Below, in pieces: positions 2,401 through 33,083 of a DNA stretch of 33,083 bases. Under the pieces are notes generated by a model. It searched no databases. It had not been told where the DNA came from and worked only from the letters and a program-made list of their open reading frames with translations. This stretch comes from Jimgerdemannia flammicorona (Eukaryota). The position numbers and the translations under genes were made by a program. The stretch spans positions 1 through 33,083 of the forward strand of contig RBNJ01000323.1 in NCBI GenBank assembly GCA_003990765.1. Direction: 5' to 3'. Position 1 is the first letter of the stretch; every line of letters begins with the position of its first letter.

Positions 2401-3309
2401 TCTTCATTATAGGATGAGGTTATCAAGCAGGAGATATTAATGGCGGAGATTGGGCGGCATGTGTTGCGTGCAAAAGGAACAACCGTTCGCGAGGTGTTAG
2501 TGTTGCACAGGTTATCGTGCCAAGTTTGAGTATGTCAAAATGGAGGCATATTGGGATTTAATACAGGCCACCGTACAGACCATTTTCGCATCTCTGCAGC
2601 TGCCAACGCCCACACGCTTGCCTCTGTAATTTGGTTTTGCCTTGTATAATTTTTTTTTTATTTTATTTTATTTTTTTTTCGCATTCCCTTATCCATACCT
2701 TGCAGCCATCTTTGTACGAAAAAAAACCACATCATTGAATATCACCACTTCTTGTATAAATTTTTTCACTCAAGACCCATATGACCCCAACCGTAGTCTC
2801 GCCTGTTTCTGATGACCCGCCGCCGATTCCCACCAAAACGAGATGTTTGTGTAGATGGGTTCTCCAGTTTGACGCGGTTGTCCTTTTCGGGCCGAACCCC
2901 GATCCGGTGGCTTGTTTCCAATTAAAGTAGTTGTTGGCACACCTATCTGGAATAGTTCTGAGCCTTGCTCGTTGTGTCGGAACGCTCGTCTTTCCCTTTC
3001 GATGCAAACTTTCCGCGCACGCCACTCTTACAGCACATTCGGACTTTGAGGGTTGTTTAAATGTGATTTTAAAAACTCTGCACGAAACCCGTGCCATGTA
3101 ACCACCGCGTGCGACACGTCCTCACACCAAATAGTCGCTGACACTTGTGAGGCTGGAGTATCTTGGTCCGTCAGTGGAGTGTGAAGCAGAGTGGGCAACG
3201 ATCCAAGGGATGTTTGACATTGCTTAACAATTCAAGGAGGGGACTGGCGCACAACACAGTCACAGTTTATATTTTTACGCGACTATCGTTTAGAGAGACG
3301 CAAGCCTCC

Positions 3310-5721
3310 ATGGAGGAAAACCAGAGCCTCCAGATCAGAGCTCGTCCAAACATACCAAACCAATTGCAATGGTCAGATGATAACAACATCGCAATTACAA
3401 CACATCCTTCAATCCACCTTCTGACTCCCGTGCACGCTGGCGCTACCGCAGAGCGACGGAGTTCATTTCTCCACGTCGGCATACCATCGCCATCTTCGTC
3501 CTCGCAATTCAAACCTTCTTTGGAATACGATGAACCTGAGAACATACAAACATCTTACATACTGCCTGAGGGATACAGATGTTCCTCCTGGTCTCCGACC
3601 GGTGTGTCCAAGCTGGACGCTTGCTTGCTCGCCACCGTTACTACCAGCCACCGGGTCCTCATCTACGGTCCCAAGGCGCATCCTGCGAACTCGGAATGGA
3701 TCCAGGTGGAAGACGTCACACCGCAGCTCGAGAAACTGTACGCATCTAACGGAACCAATTGTAGCTTTGCCTCGCCGACAGAGCTGAACAAGTTTCAGAC
3801 TGTGTCGATCGCATGGTCAACCAAACGTTCCTTCATGGACTCCCCCCTGTCCGACCCCAACGATATATCGGTCATTGCGCTGGGAAGCAAAGCGGGAACC
3901 GTGACGCTGTGGGGCTACCATCGTTCCTCTGGTGCACGCTATCTTGCCAGCTTCACGCCCCATACGTCTTGGGTTATCACCTTGGGTTGGTCGCGATGGC
4001 ATCCTATAGAGGGTGGATGTTACGCCTATGTCTCGACCGCGTGCGGGAACGGCTCCGTTGCCTGCACCAAGGTGAGGATCATGCTCGACACCAGCGGCGG
4101 CACGATAGTGAACGCGGATCCACACTCAAATTGGTTTCAACAAGACCGCCACGCCACCACCGTGATCAAATGGTTCGACGAGCCCATTCTTGGTGCCGAG
4201 GATGGATCCCGCCATCACCTTCTGTGCGCCGTGGCCAAGAGCGCTGGCGTCCACATCTTTTCTCTCAGCTCCCTCGCGGGTGCCGGAAACTCCGAATCGA
4301 CCCAATGCGTGAGCTACCGGTTCCCGCTCGGCATGGGCGTGTCAGGTCTCAGCTGGAGCACGGACGGCACGCGTTTGCGCGTCTTCACTATTGATGGCCG
4401 TCACCGCACCCTCCTTGTACCAGTCGCGAAGACGGGGAAACCATTGTCACCATACGACGACGAATCGTCCACTGCCTTCGTCATCCGTCAAATGGTCAGC
4501 AAGTTTAAGCGGCAGGAGGCTGAGGAAAATAGGAGGCAGGCACACGAGGCCGAGGATGATGACGAGGAGGACTCGGACGGGGAGGAACGTGGTGATGGCG
4601 CGAAGGAGCCGCGGATATGGGGCGCTGATGCATCGCCGAATGGGCTCTATGTGGCGTTCGTATACGAGCTGACTTCATCTTTTGACATGGAATATAAGAC
4701 GGAGAAGTTTGATATTTCCTTCCTCGACCTTTGTTTAACGCACCCACGTGCGGACGAGAATGTGGAGGCCGACATAATTGCACGGGTGCGATGGAAGCTT
4801 GCGGACCTAGATTTGCTCTCCCACGACAACGCTACTTCTCTGCTTTGGGACTTCATCGAGTACATGGAATTCGATCCCAATGCAGGGTTTGCCCAGTTCC
4901 GCCTCCTCAACCGATTTTTGAGCGCTATGCAAGAAATCCACAGTAGCGGTCTCGGCACGACCGTATCTCCATCAGAAAATTCCGCATCAGAGGTCAAAAC
5001 TGTTGCCTCGTTCCACCGCACGCTTTACTCGCACCGCGGCCTGAACGCCGCCCGCCTCATGCTCCACCTCGATCAAAACCTTATCCATATCGATCTGCCG
5101 CCCGAGACCCGCGCCCAGCTTCGCGCCGCGTTTGATCCGCTTCCGCATGACATCTGCGAGCACCACACTCGTGCTATTCTCACGCTGGCTCACTCGCGCA
5201 CCAACGCCGAGTTCAAGAACCTGGACGCTAACTCGCTGACGATGCTTATCCTCCTCTGTGATCACGCCCTGATCGCGTACGCACACAGGCCACAGCTCCT
5301 CTCGTTCGTTAAGGCCACCTACACGCGGCTGGCTGAAAACTGCACGGGCACCGCTGGCGCGCAAGGCGTGTTCAAGGGCCTGGAACGCGAGAAGGTCTGC
5401 GTTTCGGACATGATCGTGACGCGCCGGCCCATAGACAAGGGAGACGACGCGTTGCCGGCACGGGAGAAATGCCCTGCATGTGGGGCTGGGGTACCGCTGG
5501 TTTCGGCGTCGGCGGCGGTGTGCGAGAACGGGCATTTGTGGCAGCGGTGTTCGATCACGCTGAGGGTGGTGCCGACGCGGAGAGTGCGGGCTTGCGTTAG
5601 ATGTAATCGAAAGGCCCTGATAGCGGCGAGACAGGGCGAAGTTGGGTCATTATTCGAGGAGGTTTTGAGGGGATGTAATAAATGTGTGTATTGTGCGAAT
5701 AATTTTGCGGGGGCGTTGTAG
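3310..5721 (+). CDS. GTF3C4: Transcription factor IIIC delta/tau60-type subunit (GTF3C4/Sfc9-like), 803 aa, single-exon CDS
   Basis: First ATG of the 3163..5721 ORF is at 3310. N-terminal WD-like TFIIIC_delta motifs LQWSDDNNIAITT and WSPTGVSKLDACLLATVTT. C-terminal zf-TFIIIC-type Cys cluster EKCPAC...AVCENGHLWQRCSITL...RACVRCNR...CVYCANNF. Confidence 0.82.
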   Translation: MEENQSLQIRARPNIPNQLQWSDDNNIAITTHPSIHLLTPVHAGATAERRSSFLHVGIPSPSSSSQFKPSLEYDEPENIQTSYILPEGYRCSSWSPTGVSKLDACLLATVTTSHRVLIYGPKAHPANSEWIQVEDVTPQLEKLYASNGTNCSFASPTELNKFQTVSIAWSTKRSFMDSPLSDPNDISVIALGSKAGTVTLWGYHRSSGARYLASFTPHTSWVITLGWSRWHPIEGGCYAYVSTACGNGSVACTKVRIMLDTSGGTIVNADPHSNWFQQDRHATTVIKWFDEPILGAEDGSRHHLLCAVAKSAGVHIFSLSSLAGAGNSESTQCVSYRFPLGMGVSGLSWSTDGTRLRVFTIDGRHRTLLVPVAKTGKPLSPYDDESSTAFVIRQMVSKFKRQEAEENRRQAHEAEDDDEEDSDGEERGDGAKEPRIWGADASPNGLYVAFVYELTSSFDMEYKTEKFDISFLDLCLTHPRADENVEADIIARVRWKLADLDLLSHDNATSLLWDFIEYMEFDPNAGFAQFRLLNRFLSAMQEIHSSGLGTTVSPSENSASEVKTVASFHRTLYSHRGLNAARLMLHLDQNLIHIDLPPETRAQLRAAFDPLPHDICEHHTRAILTLAHSRTNAEFKNLDANSLTMLILLCDHALIAYAHRPQLLSFVKATYTRLAENCTGTAGAQGVFKGLEREKVCVSDMIVTRRPIDKGDDALPAREKCPACGAGVPLVSASAAVCENGHLWQRCSITLRVVPTRRVRACVRCNRKALIAARQGEVGSLFEEVLRGCNKCVYCANNFAGAL

Positions 5722-10181: not shown

Positions 10182-16635
<6,454 letters not shown>

Positions 16636-20071: not shown

Positions 20072-20476
20072 TGTAACATTTTAGCATAGTTTATTTCTTT
20101 TCTCTGTCTTTCTTGAATATTCTATAATCTTTCAGCACTTTCTGCATACTTAGAAATCCCCTTCTTGGCACCGAGTATTAACTAGTACTTATTTAGTTAG
20201 TCACTAAATGTTCTGGAAACTTGTAAAACTTTATTTGTCATCATTTGTCATCTTTGCCAAGAACTTTCCTCTTGGTATTTTCTTTTGATTTCTCAAATCC
20301 TTCCAGATTCTTCCTTTAGATCTTGTATAAATATCCCCTTTGTTCTCATGAATAAAGTCTCAGAATATTTTCTCCCAGAAATCTTTCGAGAATACTTGAA
20401 TCCTTAAGTATCTCTTCGAGCTACTTAGAACTACTAGAACTAGTTGCTTCCTTATTTAGAAACTAGAATTATTACA
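20072..20476 (+). repeat. 5' LTR of Gypsy 1 (405 bp)
   Basis: Starts TGTAAC and ends ATTACA (terminal inverted repeat TGTAA/TTACA); internal TATAAATA (~20326) and AATAAA (20351); followed after 2 nt by the PBS. No 3' LTR in the window to confirm. Confidence 0.7.
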
Positions 20477-20478
20477 CT

Positions 20479-20496
20479 TGGTAGCAGCAGGTGGTT
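20479..20496 (+). promoter_or_regulatory. Primer binding site complementary to the 3' end of initiator tRNA-Met
   Basis: TGGTAGCAGCAGGTGGTT 2 nt after the LTR end; TGGTAGC is the complement of the conserved eukaryotic tRNA-iMet 3' end (...GCUACCA). Confidence 0.7.
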
Positions 20497-20543: not shown

Positions 20544-22456
20544 ATGGAAGATAACAGGTGGAATCCTTCATATAGTACCTATAGTCCAGATAATGCCTCA
20601 TACAATCAATAAGAAGAAGAGGAACAGCAAAACCCTACTCAGTCAAATAGGGCCATTGAGAGTTTTTTATAGACTATATTAGCTCAGATTACTCAACTTC
20701 AAGAATACATAGAAAGAAAGGAAAGCAAGGCCTCTGCTCATACCTCTGCACCCTCACCAACATCAATATATCTAACAGTAATTACTATCAAGTCTCAAAA
20801 GTCCGACATCTTTGATAGTCAAAGAGAAGGACTGTCTACTGATGTCTGGCTTTTCCAATTGGAGCAATATGGAGAACTGACCAATTTGAAAGAAGCAACA
20901 CTAGTCCAATTCGCTGCCACACTTCTCTAAGGGAATGCTACAATCTGGTGGTGAAATTATATCCCGAATACCAGATTCTCTGACCAAATCAAGACCTGGG
21001 GCAAATTTGCTAATACTATTCAAGGCCAATTCAAACTAGTCAACAGTACTAAGACCATGTAAGACTATCTAGCAAATGTCAAACAACTCAAGTCTGTGCA
21101 AGCATACAATGTACAATTCCTATCAATCCTACTAGAATTACTATATATCACTGAAGATGAGAAGGTTGACAAGTACATCCAAGGCCTAAAAGGTCAAACC
21201 CAAGTTTATGTTAAACTAGAAGAACCCAAGGACCTAGATATAGTAATGAAAATTGCTAATAGGTTTGATGTTATTACCTATGGTCACTGCTTTGAACAGA
21301 AGAGACCACCTTTCAACAATAACAACCACAGAAGGGAGGAACCCAAAGTCAGAACTGTTGGACCTGCCCCCATGGACCTAGACACCATCAACAAGAGCAA
21401 GAAAGGCAAGCTTACACCTGAGGAAAAAGAGTATCTCAAGAAGGCTGGAGCCTGCTTCTTTTGCTATCAGCCTGATCACATTGCTACTAAATGTCCCAAG
21501 AAAACCACTGAACCAAAGAGGATCCTGGTCCTGTCCAAAGACACTCAAGGTCAACCAGTTGAATAAGTTATACTCAATTTCATGCGAGTCAATCTCAAGG
21601 CCCAGATCTCTCAAATACAATCAGAAGTAGCCATTGGTTTAGACCTTCAAGCAGTATAACAAGTCACTATCTCTGCACATGAAAGAAGGCTCATTCTAAC
21701 TGGCCTTTCAGTCGAAATCCCCAAGGAATATTATGCAAGAATTGTACCAAGATCTGGCCTCAGTCTCAAGTACTCATTAGATATTGGTGCTGGAGTCATT
21801 GACCCTGATTTTTGAGGTGAAATGCAAGTCCTACTAGTCAACCACAAGAACCAACTATACACTGTCAATGAAGGAGACAGAATTGCACAGCTCATTCTAG
21901 AGCAAGCCACCCTACCAGTCATCAAAGAAGTCACTAAGCTGTCTTCAACCAAGCGAGATCAGAAAGACTTTGACAGTATTGATAAAGTTGCAAGCATAGC
22001 CAAGAACTGAGCCAATTCAATACTCATTTTCAAAGGTCTAGTCAAGGGATAAGAACTAGATATTCTCATAGACAGTGGAGCTGTTGGGAACTTCATCAAC
22101 AAGAATCTCATCGACAAGCTCAAGATTCTCACCAAACTAGCTGGCAAGAATGGTGGAGTTATCACTACAGATAGCACTATCTTACCAATTGACTCAATTG
22201 CTGCTAAACTTCCCCTCAAGATCCAGAAGTACTGGGAATGTTTAGATTTCAAGGTAGCACCACTAGGAGACTATGATCTGATCCTAGGTAAACCCTGGCT
22301 TATATAGTACAACCCTCAGATTGATTAGATCAAGAATGAAGTTACCTTGATTCAGGATGGAGCCAATATTATCATCAAGCCAGACAAGACTCAGACGAGA
22401 ACCCCAATTGCTATTCTTTTGGCAATTCAGTTCAAGAAGGCCCTCAAGAAAGCTAT

Positions 22457-22463
<7 letters not shown>
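20544..22463 (+). pseudogene. Gypsy 1 polyprotein, 5' part: Gag - dUTPase - aspartic protease in one frame
   Basis: One frame from ATG 20544 through track ORFs at 21096, 21822 and 22347, broken only by in-frame stops. dUTPase at about 21573-21980: [42 protein letters not shown] (decayed RGxxGFGS). Confidence 0.88.
22448..22463. repeat. Left target-site duplication of the LINE
   Basis: gaaagctatctatgcc matches gaaagctatctgtgcc at 28363-28378 (15/16). Confidence 0.9.
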
Positions 22464-22501
<38 letters not shown>

Positions 22502-22559
22502 TCCCTTGGACTCCGTCTTTATTACCAATCTATGAATAAGTATACAATAACACCACCCT

Positions 22560-25500
22560 CTACCCTATCCCCATTGGGGGACCCCTCCCCACCTCATCAT
22601 GCGTAAAGACCACCCTCTCACCAATAACTCCAACTCTCCCACCACTCTGACCACAGATTTTCACTACCAAGCGGTACCTCCGACCCCCCTACAGCCCCCA
22701 TCCAAGCCACCAGCCTGTCAAGGTATCCTCCATAAGGCACTGCCACCATGATAACCAGCTCTCCAAGCTCTGTCACCTCCCCTCCTCAATACAAATAGCC
22801 AGTAACTGGCCAGCCCAACTCAAATAGCCAACACCTAGCCTAGAGTAATCCACTCCTCCCCTACCCCTCCTATCAATCGATCCCTCAGATCCTCCCACCT
22901 CTCCCGTACATCATCACCCCTATGCCTTACTCTCAAGCAGTCCCCAATGGCCCGCCAAAAGTTACCCAATACCTCACACTCCCCAAGCCAATGTTCTGGC
23001 GTCTATACAAATCCCCCTTCCTGCCCTACATTATGGCACTCCTCGCAGTCAAAGCAGCCCCCTACAACAAGGTGTCCTGAGCGGAAGTTAAGCATCACAT
23101 TCCTCCTCAGCACATGCCACCAGACCACCCAGTACTTCGGCGGCATCTAATTTTTCACCGCGGCACTCCATGTCCAAACCCCCTGCCAGTCCCACTCCTC
23201 ACCAATTCTGACTCCTTGCCAACTACTAGGCCACAGATCCTGGCCTGGTCCCCTTTGGCATTCGATTCCATCACCAATGTCGAACTTTAGTAAAGGCATG
23301 CCTCCCAGAAGAATGCCATCCCATCTCTATATCGCTGGGCCCCAAGCCCTCTCCCCCTCATCTCCTTGCTAGCAAATACCAATGCGGTGTGCCCCCTCGG
23401 CTATCCCCCACCAGAAGCCTTTATATCGCAGTTGCCCAGTGATCTGAAGCCCAACTAATGAAAGAAGATCACCAGTCAAGCCTCTTGGTGATGTCCACCT
23501 CTTTCATACCTTCTACAGCAGGGGAACCCAACCCCCTCTATGCAACTCCACTACCCTCCTAAGCTACCATACCCTCAAGCAGTGTAGTCTTTTGGAGAAG
23601 TCCACCAGCCCAAGACCACCTCTCACTACTGGTAGGGACAGTGTCTCCCAACTAATCTGACTCCTTCTGTCGGCCCAAATCCATCCCTTGGCCACCTTTA
23701 CCAATTGCTTCACCACCCAGGCTAGAAAGTCCAGATGATAAGCCAAATACCATAGTTTTGGCAGCCAGTATACATTCAAAATTGAGATTATTCCTGCCAG
23801 AGAGAAGTGTCTTCCCCTCCAACCCCACAGGTCCTCCTCCCAAATTCCAATTCTCTGCTCTCACCACAGTCTGGGCAGAACCAACTCATAGACTGACAAA
23901 TATATGCCCAAGTACTGCATCGCCTCTCCGGTGGGGACAATTGTTCCAATAACCTCTCCGCCCACCAGTCTATTGCCTAACACCATCGTTTTACACTTGT
24001 ACCAATTCAACTTCACCCCAGAGTTCTCCTCATACCACTCCACTGTCTCCTTGAGCTCCTCGACATCTGCAGTTACTCTCAAACCAACTACTATGTCATC
24101 TGCAAAGGCTCCAACTTTCCAGCCAATTCCATAGATAGAAAGCCCCACAATCCTCCACTGAATTCGGTCCATTAGAGGCTCCAAGGAAAGTGCATACAAA
24201 ATGGGGGACAGTGGGTCCCCCTGGGGCACTCCCCTACTCAGAGGGAATGCTACCCCTCTATGCTCATTACACATGAGCGCAGCCCTACTCCTTTCCAGTA
24301 GGCTGACCATCACTGTCCAAAATGGGACCGGAACCCCAATCCTATCCAATACTTTTGCCAGCCAGACTTGCTGCACCCGGTCATAAGCCTTCTCCTGGTC
24401 CAAGAAGACAAGACACCCATCCAGTCTACAGGCTCGAGCACCCTCAATAACTCTGTGCACCCAGACCATACCATCTCGAATAAGCCAACCCCCTATGAAG
24501 CCCCTCTGCTCAACTCCTATAATTTGCTGGGCCACCTTCTGCAGCCTTGCGACCACCACCTTAGTCACCAACTTTCTGTCCATATCTAGCAACATTATCG
24601 GCTGCCAGTTCTTCCAATCCTCTCACCTTCCTTTGTTCTTATAAAGCAGCATCACCAGCCCAAGATCCTGCTCCCCCACCCATCTCCCTGACTACAGTAT
24701 GGAGTCATACAGTGCTGTCAACTCTCCCAATATGCCCGAGACTCCAACCATTCGCTTTCAGAAGTCCCAGGGGAGGTCATCCTCCCCAGGCGCCATATCT
24801 GAGGCTGTCGCAGCAAGAACCTGGTGGATCTCATCCTCCTTTACAGGCATAACCAGGTCACCTAATCCCTCAGCTCGTGGAGGGTGCCAATCTTCTAATA
24901 TTTATTCAATGGCTGTAGCATCTGCCCCACCCTCCTCCTCACTCCACAATCCACTCCATCATGCCTTCAGCATTCTAAGGATATCCTGTACACCATGCAC
25001 TAGTCTACCATCTGAGTCAAGTATCCCTTCCCACCGCTGCTATACCCTTCTTGCTCAAAGCATCCTTATAAGAAACTTGGAAGGCCTCTCCCCTTCCTCC
25101 AGCCCCTGCCAATGAAGCTGCACCACCAGGCCTTGCACTCTTGACTCTTCCTCTTCCTGCAGCACCTGTTGTAGTTCCCCAACCTCCATCTTCACCCTTG
25201 TTATTCTCCAATCCTCTTCTCCCTCTACTACTGCCAGACTTGCCCACTCCTCTAGAAGCCTAGCCAATCTAGTAGAAGCCCAATGCACTCTCTGCCTTCG
25301 CTACCTCCCAGCCACTCTGCCAGCCTTGCTCCAATATATTCTGGCCATCTCCTTCATCCTCCTCCACTGAACCCCAATTGTGGCCCCTTCCTGCTGCCAA
25401 TTTGCCACCTTCATCTAAATATCATTTGCTCATTCCTCCCACCAGGACTCATCATCCAACAAGGAGGAATTCAGGTGCCAATGTCCAGGCCCATCACCAC

Positions 25501-26215
25501 TTCCCCCAAAACACTCCTGTCCCAAAAGGCCCCAGTGGTCTGACCATGGATACCATTCTACCTCTAGCACCTTCCAAACGTCATGGCCCCAACAGTCGGC
25601 AGACAGAATCCAGTCAATCCTTGTCCCCAGACCTCTAGCCCAATGCATATATACCCTCCTATCCCCCCAGTATTCCCTATCAGTATCCACCAGTGCTCCT
25701 AGCCTTTCGACCTCCTCCCACATTACCAGCCCCCCACTCCTGCTCTCAGCACCCCATCCTCCATCGGTTCTATCCAGCCGTACATCCCGAACCATATTGA
25801 AATCGCCTCCAAGTATATCCAACCCAGCTTCAGTAAGAATCCCACTCTCCAAGAGCCCTTTCACCCAATCCACATACTCCCCCCGTACAGCAGGGCAGTA
25901 ATAGGAGCCAACTGTAACTGGCTTCCAACCTGCATGAATCCACTTACCCCAGACCAGTCTCTCCCCCCAGCTCCTCACATTCTGTATCTCCCCTCTGCCT
26001 TTCTGAACCAGAATCCCAACCTTACTGTTCCAAATTGCCATGCTATCCCATTCCTTAGTCCATTCCATCCTATTAGAATTATCCTCACACCTGATATCCT
26101 GCAAGAGGAAGAGATCGGCCTCCAATCCCTTCAACCAAATAAAAATGTTCCTGCATCTAACTGTGCCCCTTAGCCCATTCACGTTCAAAGAAAAAATGTT
26201 GATTGTACTGTTCAT
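22560..26215 (-). pseudogene. LINE ORF2: AP endonuclease, reverse transcriptase and C-terminal Cys/His domain, with stops
   Basis: MNSTINIFSLNVNGL, FLLQD, GGDFN, RIDWI, WSDH (APE); KNWQPIMLL, LDQEKAYDRV, RGVPQGDPLSP, AFADDI, YLGI, GGLGL (RT); GCFDCEEC...EHWLGEC; ends GPPMGIG* at about 22560. Confidence 0.9.
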
Positions 26216-26248
26216 AATGAAATATGGTTTATTCGTAATCAATCCCTA

Positions 26249-28276
26249 CTACTCCATGCCCATCTCCTCCTGTGCCGTGTCCAGATTGTGTTCAGCTATC
26301 ACCTCCTCCTCTTCAGCCCTTTGAGCCTCCAGTCCAGCCAACAGCTCATTCATCTCCTCATCAGCCTTCTCCTCAAACTTCTCTCTGTACTCGATACAAG
26401 CCTCCTGCCAAAGCTGCAGCCCATGATGCCTGTTCCAACAGTACTCAGCCTTCTCCCCAGCGACAACCACTAACTCTGCCTCCCTCTCCTTGTCCACCTC
26501 ATACCCTTCCTCCTCCAGATATACTGTGAGAATTTCTGCCTTCAGTGCCATCGCCACTCCTTCCCCCTGCAAAATTCTTGCCCAGTGCTCATCACCCATC
26601 CCACGCAAGTCCACCTCCCCCAGCTCTTCTGCCGCCAGGTTGTTCATCATCTGGTACATCCAAAGTAGATTCCCCACCTCCTTTCCACCAGGGGTCACCG
26701 GCCTCCCTCCATCCAGCATCGTGGTGTCAGCTCCAGCACTCGCGTCCTCATCCCACACCTCCAGGACATCCACCAGTTCCTCCTTCCCGGCCGCCACTAC
26801 CTGGTCCCCATCCATTATCTCTGGAATGCTGAATTTCACCTGCTGGGTCCCCAGCATCATCATGTCCTCCCCAGATTTGTTCCTGGAAGCCGGGCCATGC
26901 CTGATAAGAGGGAAAGGAGTGGGGGAGTTCTCCCAGACTTCCTCCCAAACCTCCAAGGTGCCATCTGTATATGGGTCACTACTCGTCACCTCCTTTGCCT
27001 TCCCTGTCTTTGCCCCATCATTCCCACTCCTCTCACCAGCCCAGACACTCACTCTGGCCCCTTCTGCACCCGTCTTCATGCTTGCATCCTTCAGTTGTCC
27101 ACCCCCCAGTTTAGCCAGCAGATCTTTCTGCCTCTTCCACCCCTGAGCCCTTTTCCACTGCACCTTATTTACTCGAATCCTCTTCCCATCCACTATCTCC
27201 AGGTGTGTTGACTCCTCGAAAGTCTTCCAAGCCTTGGCACGCTATTTCACAGCCCCATCCAGCTCCTCCAGCACTTCCAACAAATCCTCCTCCTCTTCTT
27301 CACTTCCTTTTACCCATGTCACCTTGCACAGGAATGCACCCCAAACCATTGCCAAAGGCCAGTCCCTCGTCTTCCCAGTAGCCTCTTTTCCAGCCAGCCA
27401 AATCCTCACATCCATGTCTCCAGTCCTGAGTATGGTCCCTTCCCAGACCCTGAATCCGATATCCACCACCTTGCCATACTCTGCCATGACATCCTCCACT
27501 CTCTTTCTCGTCTCCATTGCCGTCACCATGGGGACTCCTTTCACCAGCAGTTAGACCACCCTTGGATCCCATTTCAAATACCTCACCATTGGAACACACA
27601 CCTCTCCAACCACTAGCCCAAACCTCAGTGCCTCCTCCAGTGGTTCGACCTCCTCAAAGCCCACCTCCACCCCCTCCAGTCCCTTTAGGAACTTCACCGA
27701 AGCTGCTCCAGCCACCTGCTTAGCGATAAGCCCCAATACTATTTTCGCCATCACTGCTAAGCCTCGGAAACACAACGTGACTGCAAATGCCGAGATCGAC
27801 TTCTTGAGTAATAGAGCCACCACCAGTCCCATTACACCATCTGCCAGGTCCCCTGGCCTCATGCCCTTCCCACCATTCGGCTTACCATCAGCAGTCCCAT
27901 CTAGATTTTTTTCCAGATCGCCCGTCACACCCCCATCAGCAGTCCCCACCCCAGCTGCTACCCCCCCAGCTCCACCCCTATGGCCCTCCAGAGAGGTACC
28001 CCCAAGAGGTTGCTGTCTGGCAGCCTTTACTGGTACCTTCCCCCCTCACAGCCAGCTCTCCAGTCCAGCCCCTTGCCGACCCCCCTTCACCTTCTCTACA
28101 AAGCTCACCCTACCAGACCCTTACCCTCCAGCTCTGCCCCCTCCTCCACCATGGCCTCCTGCCAGCAGGCCCCTCATACTTCCCTCCAAGCCAGGGCCTC
28201 TCCCCACTTGCTGCCATTCAAACACTCCAGGGCCACCCTGCCCAGTATGCACCTCTGGATGCTCATTGGTCACCAT
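26249..28276 (-). pseudogene. LINE ORF1 (Gly-rich N-terminus, RRM-like middle, acidic tail), with stops
   Basis: ATG at 28276 (MVTNEHPEV); fragments 27551..27949, 27242..27544 (KGVPM...MAEYGKVVDI...ILRTGDMDVRI) and 26249..27193; stop 33 nt before the ORF2 ATG. Confidence 0.75.
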
Positions 28277-28362
28277 AATACTAGTAGCTTTTCTTCAGAA
28301 ACTTGTGTCGATAGTGTTGCCAAAGATTGTGTAACCTGAATGTTACCAGAGAAAGGGTGTTG

Positions 28363-28378
28363 GAAAGCTATCTGTGCC
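28363..28378. repeat. Right target-site duplication of the LINE
   Basis: gaaagctatctgtgcc; removing the LINE restores the Gypsy frame FKKALKKAICAFVALIQPKKE. Confidence 0.9.
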
Positions 28379-30420
28379 TTTGTAGCACTGATCCAACCAA
28401 AGAAAGAAGACAAGAAGCTATTCATTAGTGAAAGTATCAAATTACTACTGAACAAGTACAAGGATATCTTTCTGGACAAACTACCTGGTCTACTACCTTC
28501 AAGAGACTATGACCACAAAATCAAGTTGGTACCTGATGCAGCTATACTTAAGAAGAAAATATACCATATGTCTCTACTCAAAATTGAAGAGTCAAGAAGA
28601 AACTCAATGAACTCATCGAGTAAGGAGCCATTCAGCCCAGCAAGTCACCCTTTAGCTCCCCAGTCCTATTTGTCAAGAAAAAGAATGATACTCTGCAAAT
28701 GTATATAGACTACTGAGTACTTAACAAGATCACAGTCAAGAACCATTATCTGCTACTGCTCATAGATCAAATCTTTGATACTCTTAAGAATGCAAAGTAC
28801 TTCACCAAGATTGATCTCACCTCTGGGTATTACCAAATTCGAATCAAGCCAGAAGACATACTCAAGACTGCCTTCATGACACTCTTTGGACTTTATGAAT
28901 TTCTAGTCATGGCCTTTGGTCTCACCAATGTACCAGCAACCTTTCAAGACCTCATGCAAACTGTCTTCAAGGATCAGCTCTATATCTTTGTACTTATATA
29001 TATTGATGTCATCCTGATCTCCAGTAGTACTGAAGAAGAATACCTCAAGCATATTGAATAAGTCCTCAAGATCCTCCACAAGAACAAGCTCTATACAAAG
29101 CTTAAGAAATGTGAATTTTTCAAAGACCAAGTTGAATATCTTGGACATATTGTATCAGCCAAAGGAATTCAAGTAGACCTAAGGAAAATATAAGCCATTG
29201 AACAGTGGTCTGTACCAGCAAACCTCACTGAACTCAGGTCCTTCCTTGGTCTGGCTGGATACTATCATCGATTTGTCAAGAACTTCTCTGGCATTGCAGA
29301 ATCTTTGACAAACCTCCTGTGAAAGGAACCCAACTTTGACCTCTATGTCCCCTATATCTGGGATGCTTTCTGTCAACAAGCTTTTTAAGAACTCAAGAAC
29401 TGTCTGACCCATGCACCTGTCCTAAGAAACATGGACCCAAACTTGAAGTTCACAGTCACTACAGATGCATCTAACTTTGCCATTGGTACAGTCATTTCTC
29501 AAGATGATGGTCAAGGACACCAACCTATTGTCTTTGAGTCAAGAAAATTGTCCCCAGTAGAACAAAAGCTGGCTACTCATGAAAAGAAACTCTTGGCAAT
29601 CATGCATACTCTTAAGACCTAGTGATACTACCTAAAAGGAGTTGAGTTTGATATGATCACTGATCACAGATCTCTTCAGTATATCAATACTCAACCAACC
29701 TTTTCTTATCAACAAGCCAAGTAGAGTCAACTGCTTCAGACCTTTACCTCAAACATCATTTATAAGCCTGGCAAAACTCTGGTTGTACCAGATATACTTT
29801 TAAAAAGATCTAACCTTGCTGCAATTTTACAAGTCACCATGGCACCTGAATTCCTCAATCAGATCAAGGAGGCATATGAACAAAACTCTCTAGTTCTACA
29901 AAGGAATACCAAGGAATTCAAGAAAAAGTATACCATCAAGGACAACCTCATGTACTATCAAGACAAAGTATATATTCCTGCTAACTCTGAACTATGGTAT
30001 AAGATTCTTCATGAACATCATGACTCCCTACTAGCTGGTCACCTTGGAACTGAGAAGACCATCAAGAATATCCAACAAGACTACTACTGGCCAAACATGC
30101 TCAAGGAAATCAAGGAGTATGTCCAAAGTTGTGATCTTTGTCAAAGAAATAAGTCAAGTAACCAAGTACCTGTCAGTCTTTTACAACTCTTGTCAATTCC
30201 AACCAAGAAGTTTGAACAAGTCACAATGGACTTCATTATGCAACTCCCACAAACCAAAACAGGCTATGATACTATTATTATATTTATGGACCATCTCACC
30301 AAGATTATAATCACTAAGCTAACCACAACCAATGCCACTGTCCCAGAAATTGCAAGAATCTTCTTCAAGACTGTCTTCTGCCATTATGGACTTTCCCGAG
30401 TAATTATCAGTGACCTAGAG
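28364..30420 (+). pseudogene. Gypsy 1 polyprotein, 3' part: RT - RNase H - integrase (truncated)
   Basis: YKDIFLDKLPGLLPSRDYDHKIKL, SPFSSPVLFVKKK, RT/RNase H/integrase motifs; apparent 1-nt frameshift near 28590; ends abruptly at IISD. Confidence 0.92.
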
Positions 30421-33058
30421 TAAGGGTCTAATGTGGCTGTCAACTTTGGAAAAGTCTTCTTCAGAGTTCTCAGGTTCTCCTTTGGATGGGTGGATGGAGA
30501 TAGCAAAGAGAGGGCATTTCTTGGCCAATTTCTTGAGTTGCAACTTATTGATGTAGGTGATCTTTGGTCCAGAGTTACTAGAGCTGAGTGGGTCCTTTTT
30601 ACCTTGCAGTTTGAAGTTGTAGCATCCTTTCTTGATGGTCAGAGAATGGTTTACCCAATCGATTATGGGGTTCTCTTACTTCAACCATAGAGTTCCAAGA
30701 ATGATTTCATTGTCAGGAAGTGGTATAATCTGGAGGATAACATGTACTCAGTAGTTGCCAATTTGGAAGAGTAGGTTGCAGACTTCCATATGAGGTTCCA
30801 TTAGCTATAGCAACTGCTTGAGTTTGTTATATCAAAGAGGTGAAGACCTTGAGTCTGTTGGCTGTTTCTTCATTGATGAAGTTGCCTGAGGCACTGCTGT
30901 CTATCATAATCTTGACAAGTGCTTGATTGACAAAAGCTTGAAGTATAAGTAGTTTGTCTGATCCAATAGTGGTAATTTCAGTTATAGGGGCTTTTCTTCT
31001 GTTGGTTCTTCTTTGAGCCAGTTCATTAATATAAGAGAAGTAATTGTTGATTATTTAGAAAGAGTACATTCTAATACTATGGGAGCATTGGCCACTTGGT
31101 ACATATCTGTCTTCAATTTTCTTATAGAATTATTCTTCTTTGTTCATAATAGATTGGGCTGAGGCCTTGTTTGATGAGCCAAATCCTTTAGATCCTCGAA
31201 TAGTGGGCAGTAGTTCAGGGACTTCCTTGACTGTCAGAGTTGACTTGATTTTCTTGAATAGAATCTGTATAATATAGAAATCAATGAGAATCTTAAAGAG
31301 TGTCTAACTATGATTTCAAATGAGGACAATAATTTTATCTGTGTAATTTTTGTCAATGACTCCTCCTTTTACTGAGAGTCCTTTCAATACTAGACTGCTA
31401 TGACAGTATATTCTTCCAACATGTCCTTCAGAGATTTAGATACTGATTCCTATATAGACTTGCTTAACTTCTCAGTTGGAGACTGTAGCTTCTTTAGCTG
31501 CATATAGGTCATATCTAGCTGCCTTTTGACTTCCTTTCATTGGGGCCTTAGTAGTTTGTCTTAACTTGACAAAGTCCAGTGTTCTGGTAGTCAGGTTATT
31601 GAGGTAGTGTAGAGTAGTAACAGTTACTCATATTGCTATTTGGGGTTTTTGGTTAGGGCAGGCCCTGGTCATGTGTCCTGTTTTTCAGTAATAGAAGTAT
31701 GCTCCGCTTCTTTGAAGTTCATTTCTTTCTCCTTCAGTGAGTTTCTTAAAGGTATTTAGTTGGGTGGATTCATGATTTCTGGGTGTCCATGAGATGGATG
31801 TTGAGAGAGCTTGGAATGCTTCATGCTTGGGTTTTTCTTTCTTGGTCTAAGTTTTTTCCTTATTATTAAATTGTCTTTGGGGCAGAATTGGTTCAGCTGT
31901 TAGGATTCACTTAACCATAGTCTTGATTCTTACTAGGCACTATTATTGGTAATCACAACCAACTAGATAGCCTTGTTCTCAGATTTTTCTAGTAAGTTAT
32001 TCAGGTAGTACATTGAATAGATGGTCTGCTCTTATATTATTTCATACTTCATCATTGGTGATATATCCTAGGCCAATAGTATTCAGGAGTAACTTGAGTT
32101 TTGTATAAAAGATTTTGAATTCTTTTTTATCATATATATCAAATTTGAGATTGTGAAGTTTTACTCAAGATTTGGCAATTATGGTTTTGCTACAGTATTG
32201 AGCAATCATAAGTTGTTTTTAGTCCAGGGGCTACAGGATGGGCTCTATATCCTAGGACATTATTTGCTGCATTTTGGGCAACAACCATAGGTTGGGTGTC
32301 CTATGTGAGGGATTTTTCTAGAAAGGTTTACTACTATTCTTTGGCAGGTCCTCAGAAGAATATAACAACTTGACAGACATAGGCTGTAGTAATAACAAAG
32401 AGTTGTTCCAGAGTGTGGTCTTAATTATTTATCAGAAAGTAGTCAGCAACTCACTCATTGGTCTATTGATTGGCTTCAAAGTTGGTATCAACTATACTAA
32501 TGAAGCTTTGAACTTCTTGTGTAGTACTATTGAAGGTAGGTAGGCTCAGATTTTTGGTAGGTCAAGTCTGTTCAGCTAAGACAGTAATGGTTGCTGTCAT
32601 TATTGCTACCTAGGCTGTGAGGTCCAGAATCTATTAATTCACCATATTGTTTGTTAGAGATAGTTGAACTACTATAAGAGGGTTACTTTTTAGAATAACC
32701 ATTATGTAGTTCTGGAAGAGTTTTCTGAAAGTTCTGGATATTCTGGAAGACTGTTTTCTTATGGTCAAGATCAATTTTATATGGAGTATGTCCTCTATGC
32801 TTATTGATTTTAAGATCAGGTTAACATCTCAACCAAAGTCCTTTTTTGGACTAGTTCTGAATGTTCAGGATTTTCTGTATTTCAGAAAGTTTAAGAAACT
32901 AAGACCAGCTTAGTTGAATTGGCATATCACTGCAGACAATACCCAATTAGGAAATTTTATAATGGGATTAGGAGTGGGACCTAATGGGGAGCAGATTTAC
33001 TTAAGAGTAGTTTGTGGGTTATTAAATAGGTTTATTTGCTATTCATAATATTGCTATA
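30421..33058 (-). mobile_element. Ty3/Gypsy retrotransposon 2 (highly degenerate): Gag - dUTPase - protease, truncated before RT
   Basis: Manual minus-strand translation: zinc knuckle GAYFYY*KTGHMTRACP (~31700-31655); in-frame dUTPase (~31590-31172) with AARYDLYA, GRIYCHSSL, GGVIDKNYTDKI, RGSKGFGSS; protease IMIDSSASGNFI (~30900) and IILGTLWL. Possible LTR end/PBS at ~32705-32690 (CTACA-TAA-TGG); outer boundary uncertain. Confidence 0.8.
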
Positions 33059-33083
33059 CTAGGAGTAGTGCTCCTATGTAGAA

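What the first reader, a model, noticed from the sequence alone, without database searches (positions are those of the whole stretch)
20544..22463. Gypsy retrotransposon with a dUTPase fused in frame between the Gag zinc knuckle and the protease
Seen: all five trimeric dUTPase motifs lie in the same frame as Gag and the protease, with no frameshift between them. Known: most Ty3/Gypsy elements lack dUTPase; the NC-dUTPase-PR order is that of betaretroviruses, where it is reached by frameshifting. dUTPase has been reported sporadically in fungal LTR elements, so the domain alone is not unprecedented. Inference: this position in a single polyprotein may define a poorly described fungal lineage that packages dUTPase at Gag stoichiometry to keep uracil out of its cDNA.
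Basis: partly seen in the sequence, partly recalled or inferred. Interest (0 to 1): 0.75.

Follow-up and report, generated by a model that had tools for sequence, protein, structure and literature searches.

The report
Dead fungal retrotransposon carrying a dUTPase
This is a decayed copy of an abundant fungal jumping gene whose single protein chain carries a uracil-clearing enzyme between its RNA-packaging part and its protease, a real arrangement but one already reported in other fungal elements.

Summary
Confirmed at family level. One frame holds capsid, CCHC knuckle, dUTPase (PF00692, E 3.7e-30) and protease, but this copy is dead: 12 stops, a LINE insertion, 3' half lost. The stop at 21564 is decay (3 of 29 other copies carry it). 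Full-length copies are 6.0-kb chromoviruses (403-405-bp LTRs, tRNA-iMet primer site) with Gag and all of Pol in one frame. The dUTPase was constrained like capsid and protease. Intact relatives with the same order occur in environmental proteins.

Two inferences weaken. With no frameshift anywhere, dUTPase is translated 1:1 with RT and integrase as well as Gag, so 'Gag stoichiometry' is unshown. The order does not define one lineage: it recurs in separate RT groups, close relatives lack dUTPase, and dUTPase ahead of the protease is published for Postia PosPlaTy3-3. Protease-site-like motifs on both sides suggest a released enzyme, not a betaretroviral NC-dUTPase fusion.

Most notable context: at least seven Gypsy families in this genome carry dUTPase, in two positions. 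This scan found the same layout before on other pieces of this genome.

The parts
20072..20476 (+). 5' LTR of family A (TGTAACA...TTACA)
   Evidence: Matches both LTRs of full-length copies at 85-91%
20479..20496 (+). Primer-binding site for host tRNA-Met(CAT) of initiator type
   Evidence: 17 of 18 bases complementary to the 3' end of the tRNA gene in L082 plus CCA; initiator assignment from recalled sequence features
20544..22447 (+). 5' part of the single Gag-Pol frame; 12 stops in this copy
20886..21305 (+). Capsid domain (Ty3_capsid / Retrotrans_gag)
   Evidence: Pfam E 1.1e-12 and 2.9e-9
21453..21494 (+). CCHC zinc knuckle (nucleocapsid)
   Evidence: C-x2-C-x4-H-x4-C in the translation
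21564..21566 (+). Stop codon in the knuckle-dUTPase linker; decay, not a Gag terminator
   Evidence: Stop in 3 of 29 other copies, sense codon in 26
21600..21977 (+). Trimeric-type dUTPase domain, inactivated in this copy (2 stops, degenerate motif 5)
   Evidence: PF00692 E 3.7e-30; a stop-free copy matches solved dUTPases to E 2.7e-36
22002..22355 (+). Aspartic protease (DSG motif)
   Evidence: RVP_2 E 6.6e-11
22448..22466 (+). Left copy of a 19-bp target-site duplication of the LINE
   Evidence: 18 of 19 bases equal to 28363-28381
22467..28362 (-). Inserted LINE (AP endonuclease + RT, poly-A tail) that splits the element between protease and RT
   Evidence: Exo_endo_phos E 1.4e-5, RVT_1 E 5.7e-27; element resumes at the duplication
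28363..30413 (+). Continuation of family A Pol: RT, RNase H, integrase zinc finger, start of the integrase core; truncated
   Evidence: RVT_1, RT_RNaseH, Integrase_H2C2; 91% to copy L038
30415..33069 (-). Second, distant Gypsy element (family B): LTR, Gag, knuckle, dUTPase (31549-31172), protease; 3' half missing
   Evidence: PF00692 E 8.5e-22; 85-91% to L098; domain order

Best explanation
The locus is a dead copy of a high-copy fungal chromovirus (Ty3/Gypsy) family. SHOWN: the family is about 6.0 kb with 403-405-bp LTRs, 5-bp target duplications and a tRNA-Met primer site, and encodes one polyprotein CA-NC-dUTPase-PR-RT-RH-IN-chromodomain with no shared stop or frameshift; the dUTPase was under purifying selection while the family was active; copies have since decayed mainly by C-to-T changes at CpG. 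INFERRED: the dUTPase is a cassette sitting in the spacer between nucleocapsid and protease. It enters the virus-like particle as part of the polyprotein, is most likely cut free on both sides by the element's protease, trimerises, and hydrolyses dUTP to dUMP at the site of reverse transcription so that less uracil enters the cDNA. It is translated 1:1 with every other domain; any Gag excess would have to arise after translation, as in Tf1.
For: Domain order and single frame: knuckle-dUTPase-protease in one frame in 19 of 20 long copies; capsid to integrase zinc finger in one frame in 10 of the 19 that reach it, with shifts at differing places in the other 9; chromodomain E 4e-13 and 4e-15. 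Element anatomy: (13 of 20 with both LTRs; identical 5-bp duplications in 9 of 13). Selection: transversion-only second-position/fourfold ratio between families A and A2 is 0.15 for dUTPase, 0.24 for capsid, 0.07 for protease; Nei-Gojobori 0.19, 0.19, 0.20. Catalytic Asp of motif 3 in 28 of 29 copies. Intact outside relatives with the same order: P0001 (cluster of 11), P0002 (1767 aa, complete), P0353, P0416, P0417. Flanking hydrophobic-x-x-hydrophobic motif after the knuckle in 8 of 10 and before the protease in 9 of 10 dUTPase-bearing elements (shuffle means 4.3 and 2.5), and in 6 of 7 and 6 of 7 dUTPase-less relatives; Ty1 protease sites have Val/Ile at P2 and P2' (PMC6952103, passages). 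Role of retroviral dUTPases: PMC4531489, sections 8-9 and passages.
Against: No enzyme activity, particle composition or processing was measured. The cleavage-site motif was defined after looking at the sequences, the rows are related, and the Ty1 precedent is a Copia protease. Motif 3 has Phe in place of the usual Tyr in 29 of 29 A and 14 of 14 A2 copies (usual Tyr seen), which may alter sugar specificity. Eight close Pol relatives with a complete Gag-protease junction have no dUTPase, so the enzyme is dispensable in this wider group. Synonymous sites between A and A2 are near saturation, so the ratios are rough.
Confidence: 0.75

Rival explanations
1. Betaretrovirus-like NC-dUTPase fusion at Gag level: the dUTPase stays attached to the nucleocapsid, is tethered to the RNA, and survives with Gag while downstream Pol domains are degraded or under-expressed.
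For: The knuckle lies only about 35 residues ahead of the dUTPase in families A, A2 and B and about 25 in P0001. Betaretroviral enzymes always retain NC (PMC4531489, section 9). A Tf1-like loss of Pol proteins (26:1 Gag:IN; PMC7175516, passage) could spare a Gag-side domain.
Against: No stop, frameshift or slippery heptamer between knuckle and the end of the protease. A protease-site-like motif sits between knuckle and dUTPase in 8 of 10 elements. The knuckle-dUTPase spacer varies from about 25 to over 150 residues (P0002, P0407). Sister RT lineages and families D, E, F place the domain after the protease, so adjacency to NC is not needed.
Confidence: 0.15
2. The dUTPase is a neutral passenger, recently captured from the host gene, with no role in transposition.
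For: The host dUTPase message has been retrocopied in this genome (intronless L051, 98% identical to the 4-exon gene in L081), so capture is possible. Many close relatives lack the domain.
Against: Only 38% identity to the host enzyme; a family A plus host clade is rejected (AU p 0.017); constraint equals that of capsid; the domain is kept in-frame in intact environmental relatives.
Confidence: 0.04
3. The domain is conserved for a non-catalytic or secondary role (a trimeric scaffold in particle assembly, or interference with host silencing or repair), with dUTP hydrolysis incidental.
For: Phe for Tyr in motif 3 and an altered motif 1 in families A and A2. A retroviral dUTPase-like gene can be needed without activity (BIV; PMC4261571, search listing and abstract start only).
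Against: All five catalytic motifs, including the motif 3 Asp and the motif 5 loop, are kept across families only 31-54% identical.
Confidence: 0.06

Closest known systems
PosPlaTy3-3 of Postia placenta (Novikova et al. 2010, PMC2864245; section 5 and passages read, Figure 3 and .DOC supplements not viewable)
   Same: Fungal Gypsy element with dUTPase at the amino-terminus of Pol, i.e. ahead of the protease.
   Different: Here the domain is in one frame with Gag and the whole of Pol, primed by tRNA-Met. Whether PosPlaTy3-3 has one or two ORFs could not be seen, and its sequence was not on hand. The only named basidiomycete element with this order in my set (Phlebia brevispora, P0008) falls in a separate, well-supported RT clade.
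Other dUTPase-bearing Gypsy elements: PosPlaTy3-4 and -5, Phanerochaete elements, Tuber Tmt1, rotifer Juno/Vesta/TelKA, planarian Burro (PMC2864245, PMC5408684, PMC6431247; passages)
   Same: Trimeric dUTPase as an accessory polyprotein domain.
   Different: Placed between protease and RT or at the C-terminus. Families D, E and F of this genome have the protease-dUTPase-RT order.
Betaretroviral NC-dUTPase (MMTV, M-PMV; PMC4531489 sections 8-9)
   Same: Linear order NC, dUTPase, protease.
   Different: There it is a trans-frame protein made by ribosomal frameshift and keeps NC. Here there is no frameshift, the RT is Ty3/Gypsy with a chromodomain integrase, no env was seen, and cleavage from NC looks likely.
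Tf1/Tf2 of Schizosaccharomyces pombe (PMC7175516, passages)
   Same: Ty3/Gypsy with one ORF processed by its own protease.
   Different: No dUTPase is described there; Tf1 self-primes (title in the reference list of PMC2864245 and recall), whereas this family has a tRNA primer site.

Membership tests
Ty3/Gypsy (Metaviridae) | Pol order PR-RT-RH-IN | tested here: met
Ty3/Gypsy (Metaviridae) | LTRs ending TG...CA, short target duplication, primer site, polypurine tract | tested here: met
   403-405-bp LTRs, 5-bp duplications identical in 9 of 13, purine tract before the 3' LTR; primer site 17 of 18
Chromovirus | Chromodomain at the integrase C-terminus | tested here: met
   PF00385 E 4.3e-13 and 4e-15 in 2 of 2 full-length copies scanned; that part is missing from the window copy
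Chromovirus named clades (Tcn1, Chlamyvir, MarY1, Tf1) | RT groups with reference members of the clade | not testable with these tools
   No labelled reference RTs were on hand; nearest rows are unnamed environmental elements, then algal ones
PosPlaTy3-3-like dUTPase chromoviruses | dUTPase ahead of the protease | tested here: met
PosPlaTy3-3-like dUTPase chromoviruses | Same RT lineage as the basidiomycete elements | tested here: inconclusive
   The proxy P0008 (Phlebia) sits in a separate clade (99; 97/97), but PosPlaTy3-3 itself was not in the tree
Trimeric dUTPases (PF00692) | Five conserved motifs | tested here: met
   All five in 7 of 29 copies; singly 26, 28, 26, 25, 10 of 29. Not met by the window copy itself (stop in motif 3, degenerate motif 5)
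Trimeric dUTPases (PF00692) | dUTP pyrophosphatase activity and homotrimer | not testable with these tools
   needs an assay
Betaretroviral NC-dUTPase | Trans-frame protein made by a gag-pro frameshift | tested here: not met
   Same frame in 19 of 20 long copies; no slippery heptamer in 21441-22463
Betaretroviral NC-dUTPase | Mature protein keeps NC | not testable with these tools
   Only a sequence hint of cleavage

The most novel reading that the evidence does not exclude
In this fungus dUTPase is close to a requirement for Gypsy success. At least seven families from distant RT lineages carry it, in two positions, and appear to have exchanged it as a module. That would point to a host condition (high dUTP or low host dUTPase in the cells where transposition is inherited) that selects for the enzyme and helped drive genome inflation, with family A one branch of an unnamed tRNA-primed, single-ORF chromovirus group in soil fungi. 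Basis: 8,265 first-look dUTPase candidates against 7,947 for Gypsy RNase H; 19 of 20 loci picked by RNase H score carry it; dUTPases of families C and F pair (97/80) though their RTs cannot (AU p 4e-5). Against: candidate counts are not copy numbers, the 20 loci come from two families, and the RT-congruent pairing E+F is not rejected on the dUTPase tree (p 0.33).
Probability: 0.3. Interest if true: 0.55.

Novelty: new member of a known kind. Interest (0 to 1): 0.3.

Why it matters
The role of dUTPase in LTR retrotransposons is described as unclear in the one fungal survey read (PMC2864245). This family adds evidence that the domain was under purifying selection, and it gives intact natural relatives with and without the domain that could be compared. 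The genome-wide prevalence across unrelated Gypsy lineages is a usable lead on what host conditions favour the enzyme; Entomophthora muscae, another repeat-inflated fungal genome, is also enriched in PF00692 (10.1101/2023.09.13.557621, one passage). The domain order itself is not new, and the window copy is a fossil.

Tried and rejected
Programmed read-through stop between dUTPase and protease: the stop at 22008 occurs in 15 of 29 copies, but equally frequent stops occur inside capsid and dUTPase (12-17 of 29), with the mixed sense/stop pattern of CpG decay; rejected.

Recent capture from the host dUTPase: rejected.

One origin for all Gag-knuckle-dUTPase-protease elements: not recovered in either dUTPase tree, AU p 0.042, which is only marginal.

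Expression: no RNA holder listed, which says nothing either way. Three soil DNA runs were laid: they cover the stretch in short pieces, and one 306-base contig spans 21510-21808 in frame; they add presence only.

A second tRNA isoform to explain primer-site tail variants: pattern not found.

Naming the host by exact protein look-up: 0 of 3 window proteins were in the collection.

An IQ-TREE run on 146 RT rows timed out and was replaced by FastTree; in that tree the row 'L102_famE_noDUT' is mislabelled and belongs to family B. One search used 110 dUTPase rows, a random subsample of the Copia-like and protease-dUTPase rows plus all rows with the order in question. No structure or complex prediction was run, since sequence matches to solved dUTPases are already decisive for the fold.

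Full report
OBSERVATION. Translation of 20544-22463 gives one frame with capsid, a CCHC knuckle, dUTPase and aspartic protease, interrupted by 12 stops. Read with X at stops, Pfam finds dUTPase at aa 353-477 (E 3.7e-30), Ty3_capsid (1.1e-12), Retrotrans_gag (2.9e-9) and RVP_2 (6.6e-11). In this copy the dUTPase has two stops and a degenerate motif 5.

HOST AND SURROUNDINGS. The element starts with an LTR at 20072-20476. It is split by a minus-strand LINE (22467-28362, 19-bp target duplication), resumes with RT, RNase H and the start of integrase (28363-30413), and then abuts a second, inverted Gypsy element (30415-33069) that also has knuckle-dUTPase-protease.

THE FAMILY. A DNA search of the genome gave 961 candidates, 40 scored, the 39 non-self ones at 91-92% identity; 29 other copies were compared codon by codon. 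The stop at 21564 is in 3 of 29; 27 of 29 keep the frame from knuckle through protease; one partial copy has no stop over that span. Of 20 long copies (17 of them the same insertions as above), 19 have knuckle, dUTPase and protease in one frame, and 10 of the 19 that reach integrase have capsid to integrase in one frame; the other 9 shift at differing places. Two copies scanned in full show CA-NC-dUTPase-PR-RT-RH-IN-SH3-chromodomain in about 1,620 codons. Thirteen of 20 have both LTRs: 6.02-6.04 kb, LTRs 403-405 bp, identical 5-bp duplications in 9 of 13. The primer site matches a host tRNA-Met gene at 17 of 18 bases. So this is a tRNA-primed, single-ORF chromovirus.

DECAY. Paired LTRs differ by 4.5-8.7%, with 312 transitions to 10 transversions. 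C/T differences hit 113 of 160 CpG sites, 115 of 516 CpA, 50 of 271 CpC and 24 of 844 CpT; CpG observed/expected is 0.03-0.27 in the elements and 1.06-1.13 in host genes. This fits methylation-driven deamination (inference) and explains recurrent stops, including the one at 22008 between dUTPase and protease (15 of 29), which is no more frequent than stops inside capsid or dUTPase. None of the 13 full-length copies is intact.

WAS THE dUTPase FUNCTIONAL? Motifs 1-5 survive in 26, 28, 26, 25 and 10 of 29 copies, all five in 7, the motif 3 Asp in 28. A sister family A2 (1,116 candidates, 40 scored, 14 loci fetched) allows a selection test. Using transversions only, which C-to-T decay does not touch, the second-position to fourfold-site ratio is 0.15 for dUTPase, 0.24 for capsid and 0.07 for protease. 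The domain was constrained like the essential ones. Motif 3 has Phe rather than the usual Tyr in all 43 A and A2 copies. Activity itself is untested.

DISTRIBUTION. Among the 120 listed hits the order is dUTPase-protease in 8, protease-dUTPase in 35, RT/RNase H-dUTPase in 13, C-terminal in 3, other (largely Copia-like by their Pfam lists) in 60 and unclear in 1. Intact ORFs with Gag-knuckle-dUTPase-protease exist outside this genome: P0001 (cluster of 11), P0002 (complete, 1,767 aa), P0353, P0416, P0417, P0407, P0195; they are unnamed environmental proteins. Of the 120 listed nearest Pol relatives only 3 carry dUTPase; many are Pol fragments, but 8 with a complete Gag-protease junction clearly lack it. 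Of the best 150 representatives, 4 show knuckle-dUTPase-protease, 2 knuckle-dUTPase, 6 dUTPase-protease, 17 protease-dUTPase.

ONE LINEAGE? In the RT-RNase H tree (146 rows, FastTree) family A groups with family C and P0002 (94), beside protease-dUTPase and dUTPase-less elements, while the Phlebia element with the same order lies in a separate clade (99); the smaller IQ-TREE run keeps the Phlebia clade apart (97/97) but leaves family A's neighbours unresolved. In the dUTPase trees A, A2 and the P0001 group form a clade (100/95; 98/91), and B, C, D, F and P0353 another (97/84). Forcing all Gag-knuckle-dUTPase-protease rows together gives AU p 0.042, and family A with the host enzyme p 0.017. 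With 137 columns these are weak, but a single position-defined lineage is not supported. A + A2 + P0001 is a fair candidate for a small real lineage.

MECHANISM. Shown: one polyprotein, no frameshift or slippery site. It follows that dUTPase, RT and integrase are all translated 1:1 with Gag. Tf1, also single-ORF, reaches 26:1 Gag:IN by degrading Pol proteins (PMC7175516, passage), so which side the dUTPase falls on is open. A hydrophobic-x-x-hydrophobic motif follows the knuckle in 8 of 10 and precedes the protease in 9 of 10 dUTPase-bearing elements (shuffle means 4.3 and 2.5; 10 and 0 of 2,000 shuffles as high), and in 6 of 7 and 6 of 7 dUTPase-less relatives (114 and 17 of 2,000; 1 of 8 rows dropped for lack of a protease motif). 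Ty1 protease sites have Val/Ile at P2 and P2' (PMC6952103, passages). I infer that the dUTPase sits in the NC-PR spacer between two cut sites and is released, unlike the betaretroviral NC-dUTPase, which keeps NC (PMC4531489, section 9). The motif was chosen after seeing the data, so this is a hint. The purpose, lowering dUTP during reverse transcription, is carried over from lentiviral work in non-dividing cells (PMC4531489, passages).

GENOME CONTEXT. PF00692 gave 8,265 first-look candidates and Gypsy RNase H 7,947 (150 scored each). All 20 plus-strand RNase H hits with at least 3.6 kb upstream were fetched: 19 of 20 carry dUTPase, all after the protease, from two further families E and F whose RTs lie outside the chromovirus group. 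With A, A2, B, C (before the protease) and D, E, F (after), at least seven families carry the enzyme. The sample is biased to top-scoring families.

PRIOR ART. Novikova et al. 2010 (PMC2864245; section 5 and passages read; Figure 3 and the .DOC supplements could not be seen and may bear on the single-ORF point) report dUTPase at the amino-terminus of Pol in PosPlaTy3-3, at the C-terminus in -4 and between PR and RT in -5, with independent acquisitions. PMC5408684 and PMC6431247 (passages) cover rotifer and planarian elements with PR-dUTPase-RT. Searches listed no paper that, by title or abstract start, describes this family or a single-ORF Gag-dUTPase-PR chromovirus; subscription papers, Repbase, REXdb and GyDB entries were not searchable.

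VERDICT. Real, family-wide and once functional, but the copy is dead and the order is known. New member of a known kind; interest 0.3. The genome-wide prevalence is the better lead.

Noticed in passing
window 30415-33069 (-): A second, distant Gypsy family (B; dUTPase about 31-41% identical to family A's) with the same knuckle-dUTPase-protease order abuts family A head to head; both lack their 3' halves, so a deletion or misassembly lies at 30413/30415.
   Followed up: partly
L084:940-1170; L088; window about 30950-31170 (-): Families B and C carry an extra Cys/His-rich segment (C-P/L-H ... C-x-x-C) between dUTPase and protease that family A lacks; possibly a metal-binding motif.
   Followed up: no
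L051:1492-2100 (-) and L081:148-1057: The host dUTPase gene has four exons (L081) and an intronless copy 97-99% identical to it (L051), apparently a retrocopy with a few motif changes.
   Followed up: partly
L118-L137: Two further families (E, F) with protease-dUTPase-RT order and RTs outside the chromovirus group; no chromodomain within 2.6 kb past the RNase H start. Family F's dUTPase pairs with family C's although their RTs are far apart.
   Followed up: partly
window 22467-28362 (-): A nearly full-length LINE (ORF1, AP endonuclease, RT, poly-A, 19-bp target duplication) inserted into the Gypsy element.
   Followed up: partly
primer sites of L031-L050: The primer site has three tail variants after a shared core; only one matches the tRNA-Met gene found, as expected if the primer is sometimes copied during reverse transcription. 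No second tRNA isoform was found.
   Followed up: partly
LTR pairs of 13 full-length copies: Besides CpG (71% of sites), C/T differences are frequent at CpA (22%) and CpC (18%) but rare at CpT (3%), a context pattern that may reflect non-CG methylation or a RIP-like process.
   Followed up: no
proteins P0040-P0120: Many environmental Copia-type polyproteins (RVT_2) also carry dUTPase, by their precomputed Pfam lists.
   Followed up: no
window 3151-5721 (+) and 11188-16251 (-): Host genes: a TFIIIC delta-type subunit and a multi-exon SNF2/STH1 remodeller.
   Followed up: partly
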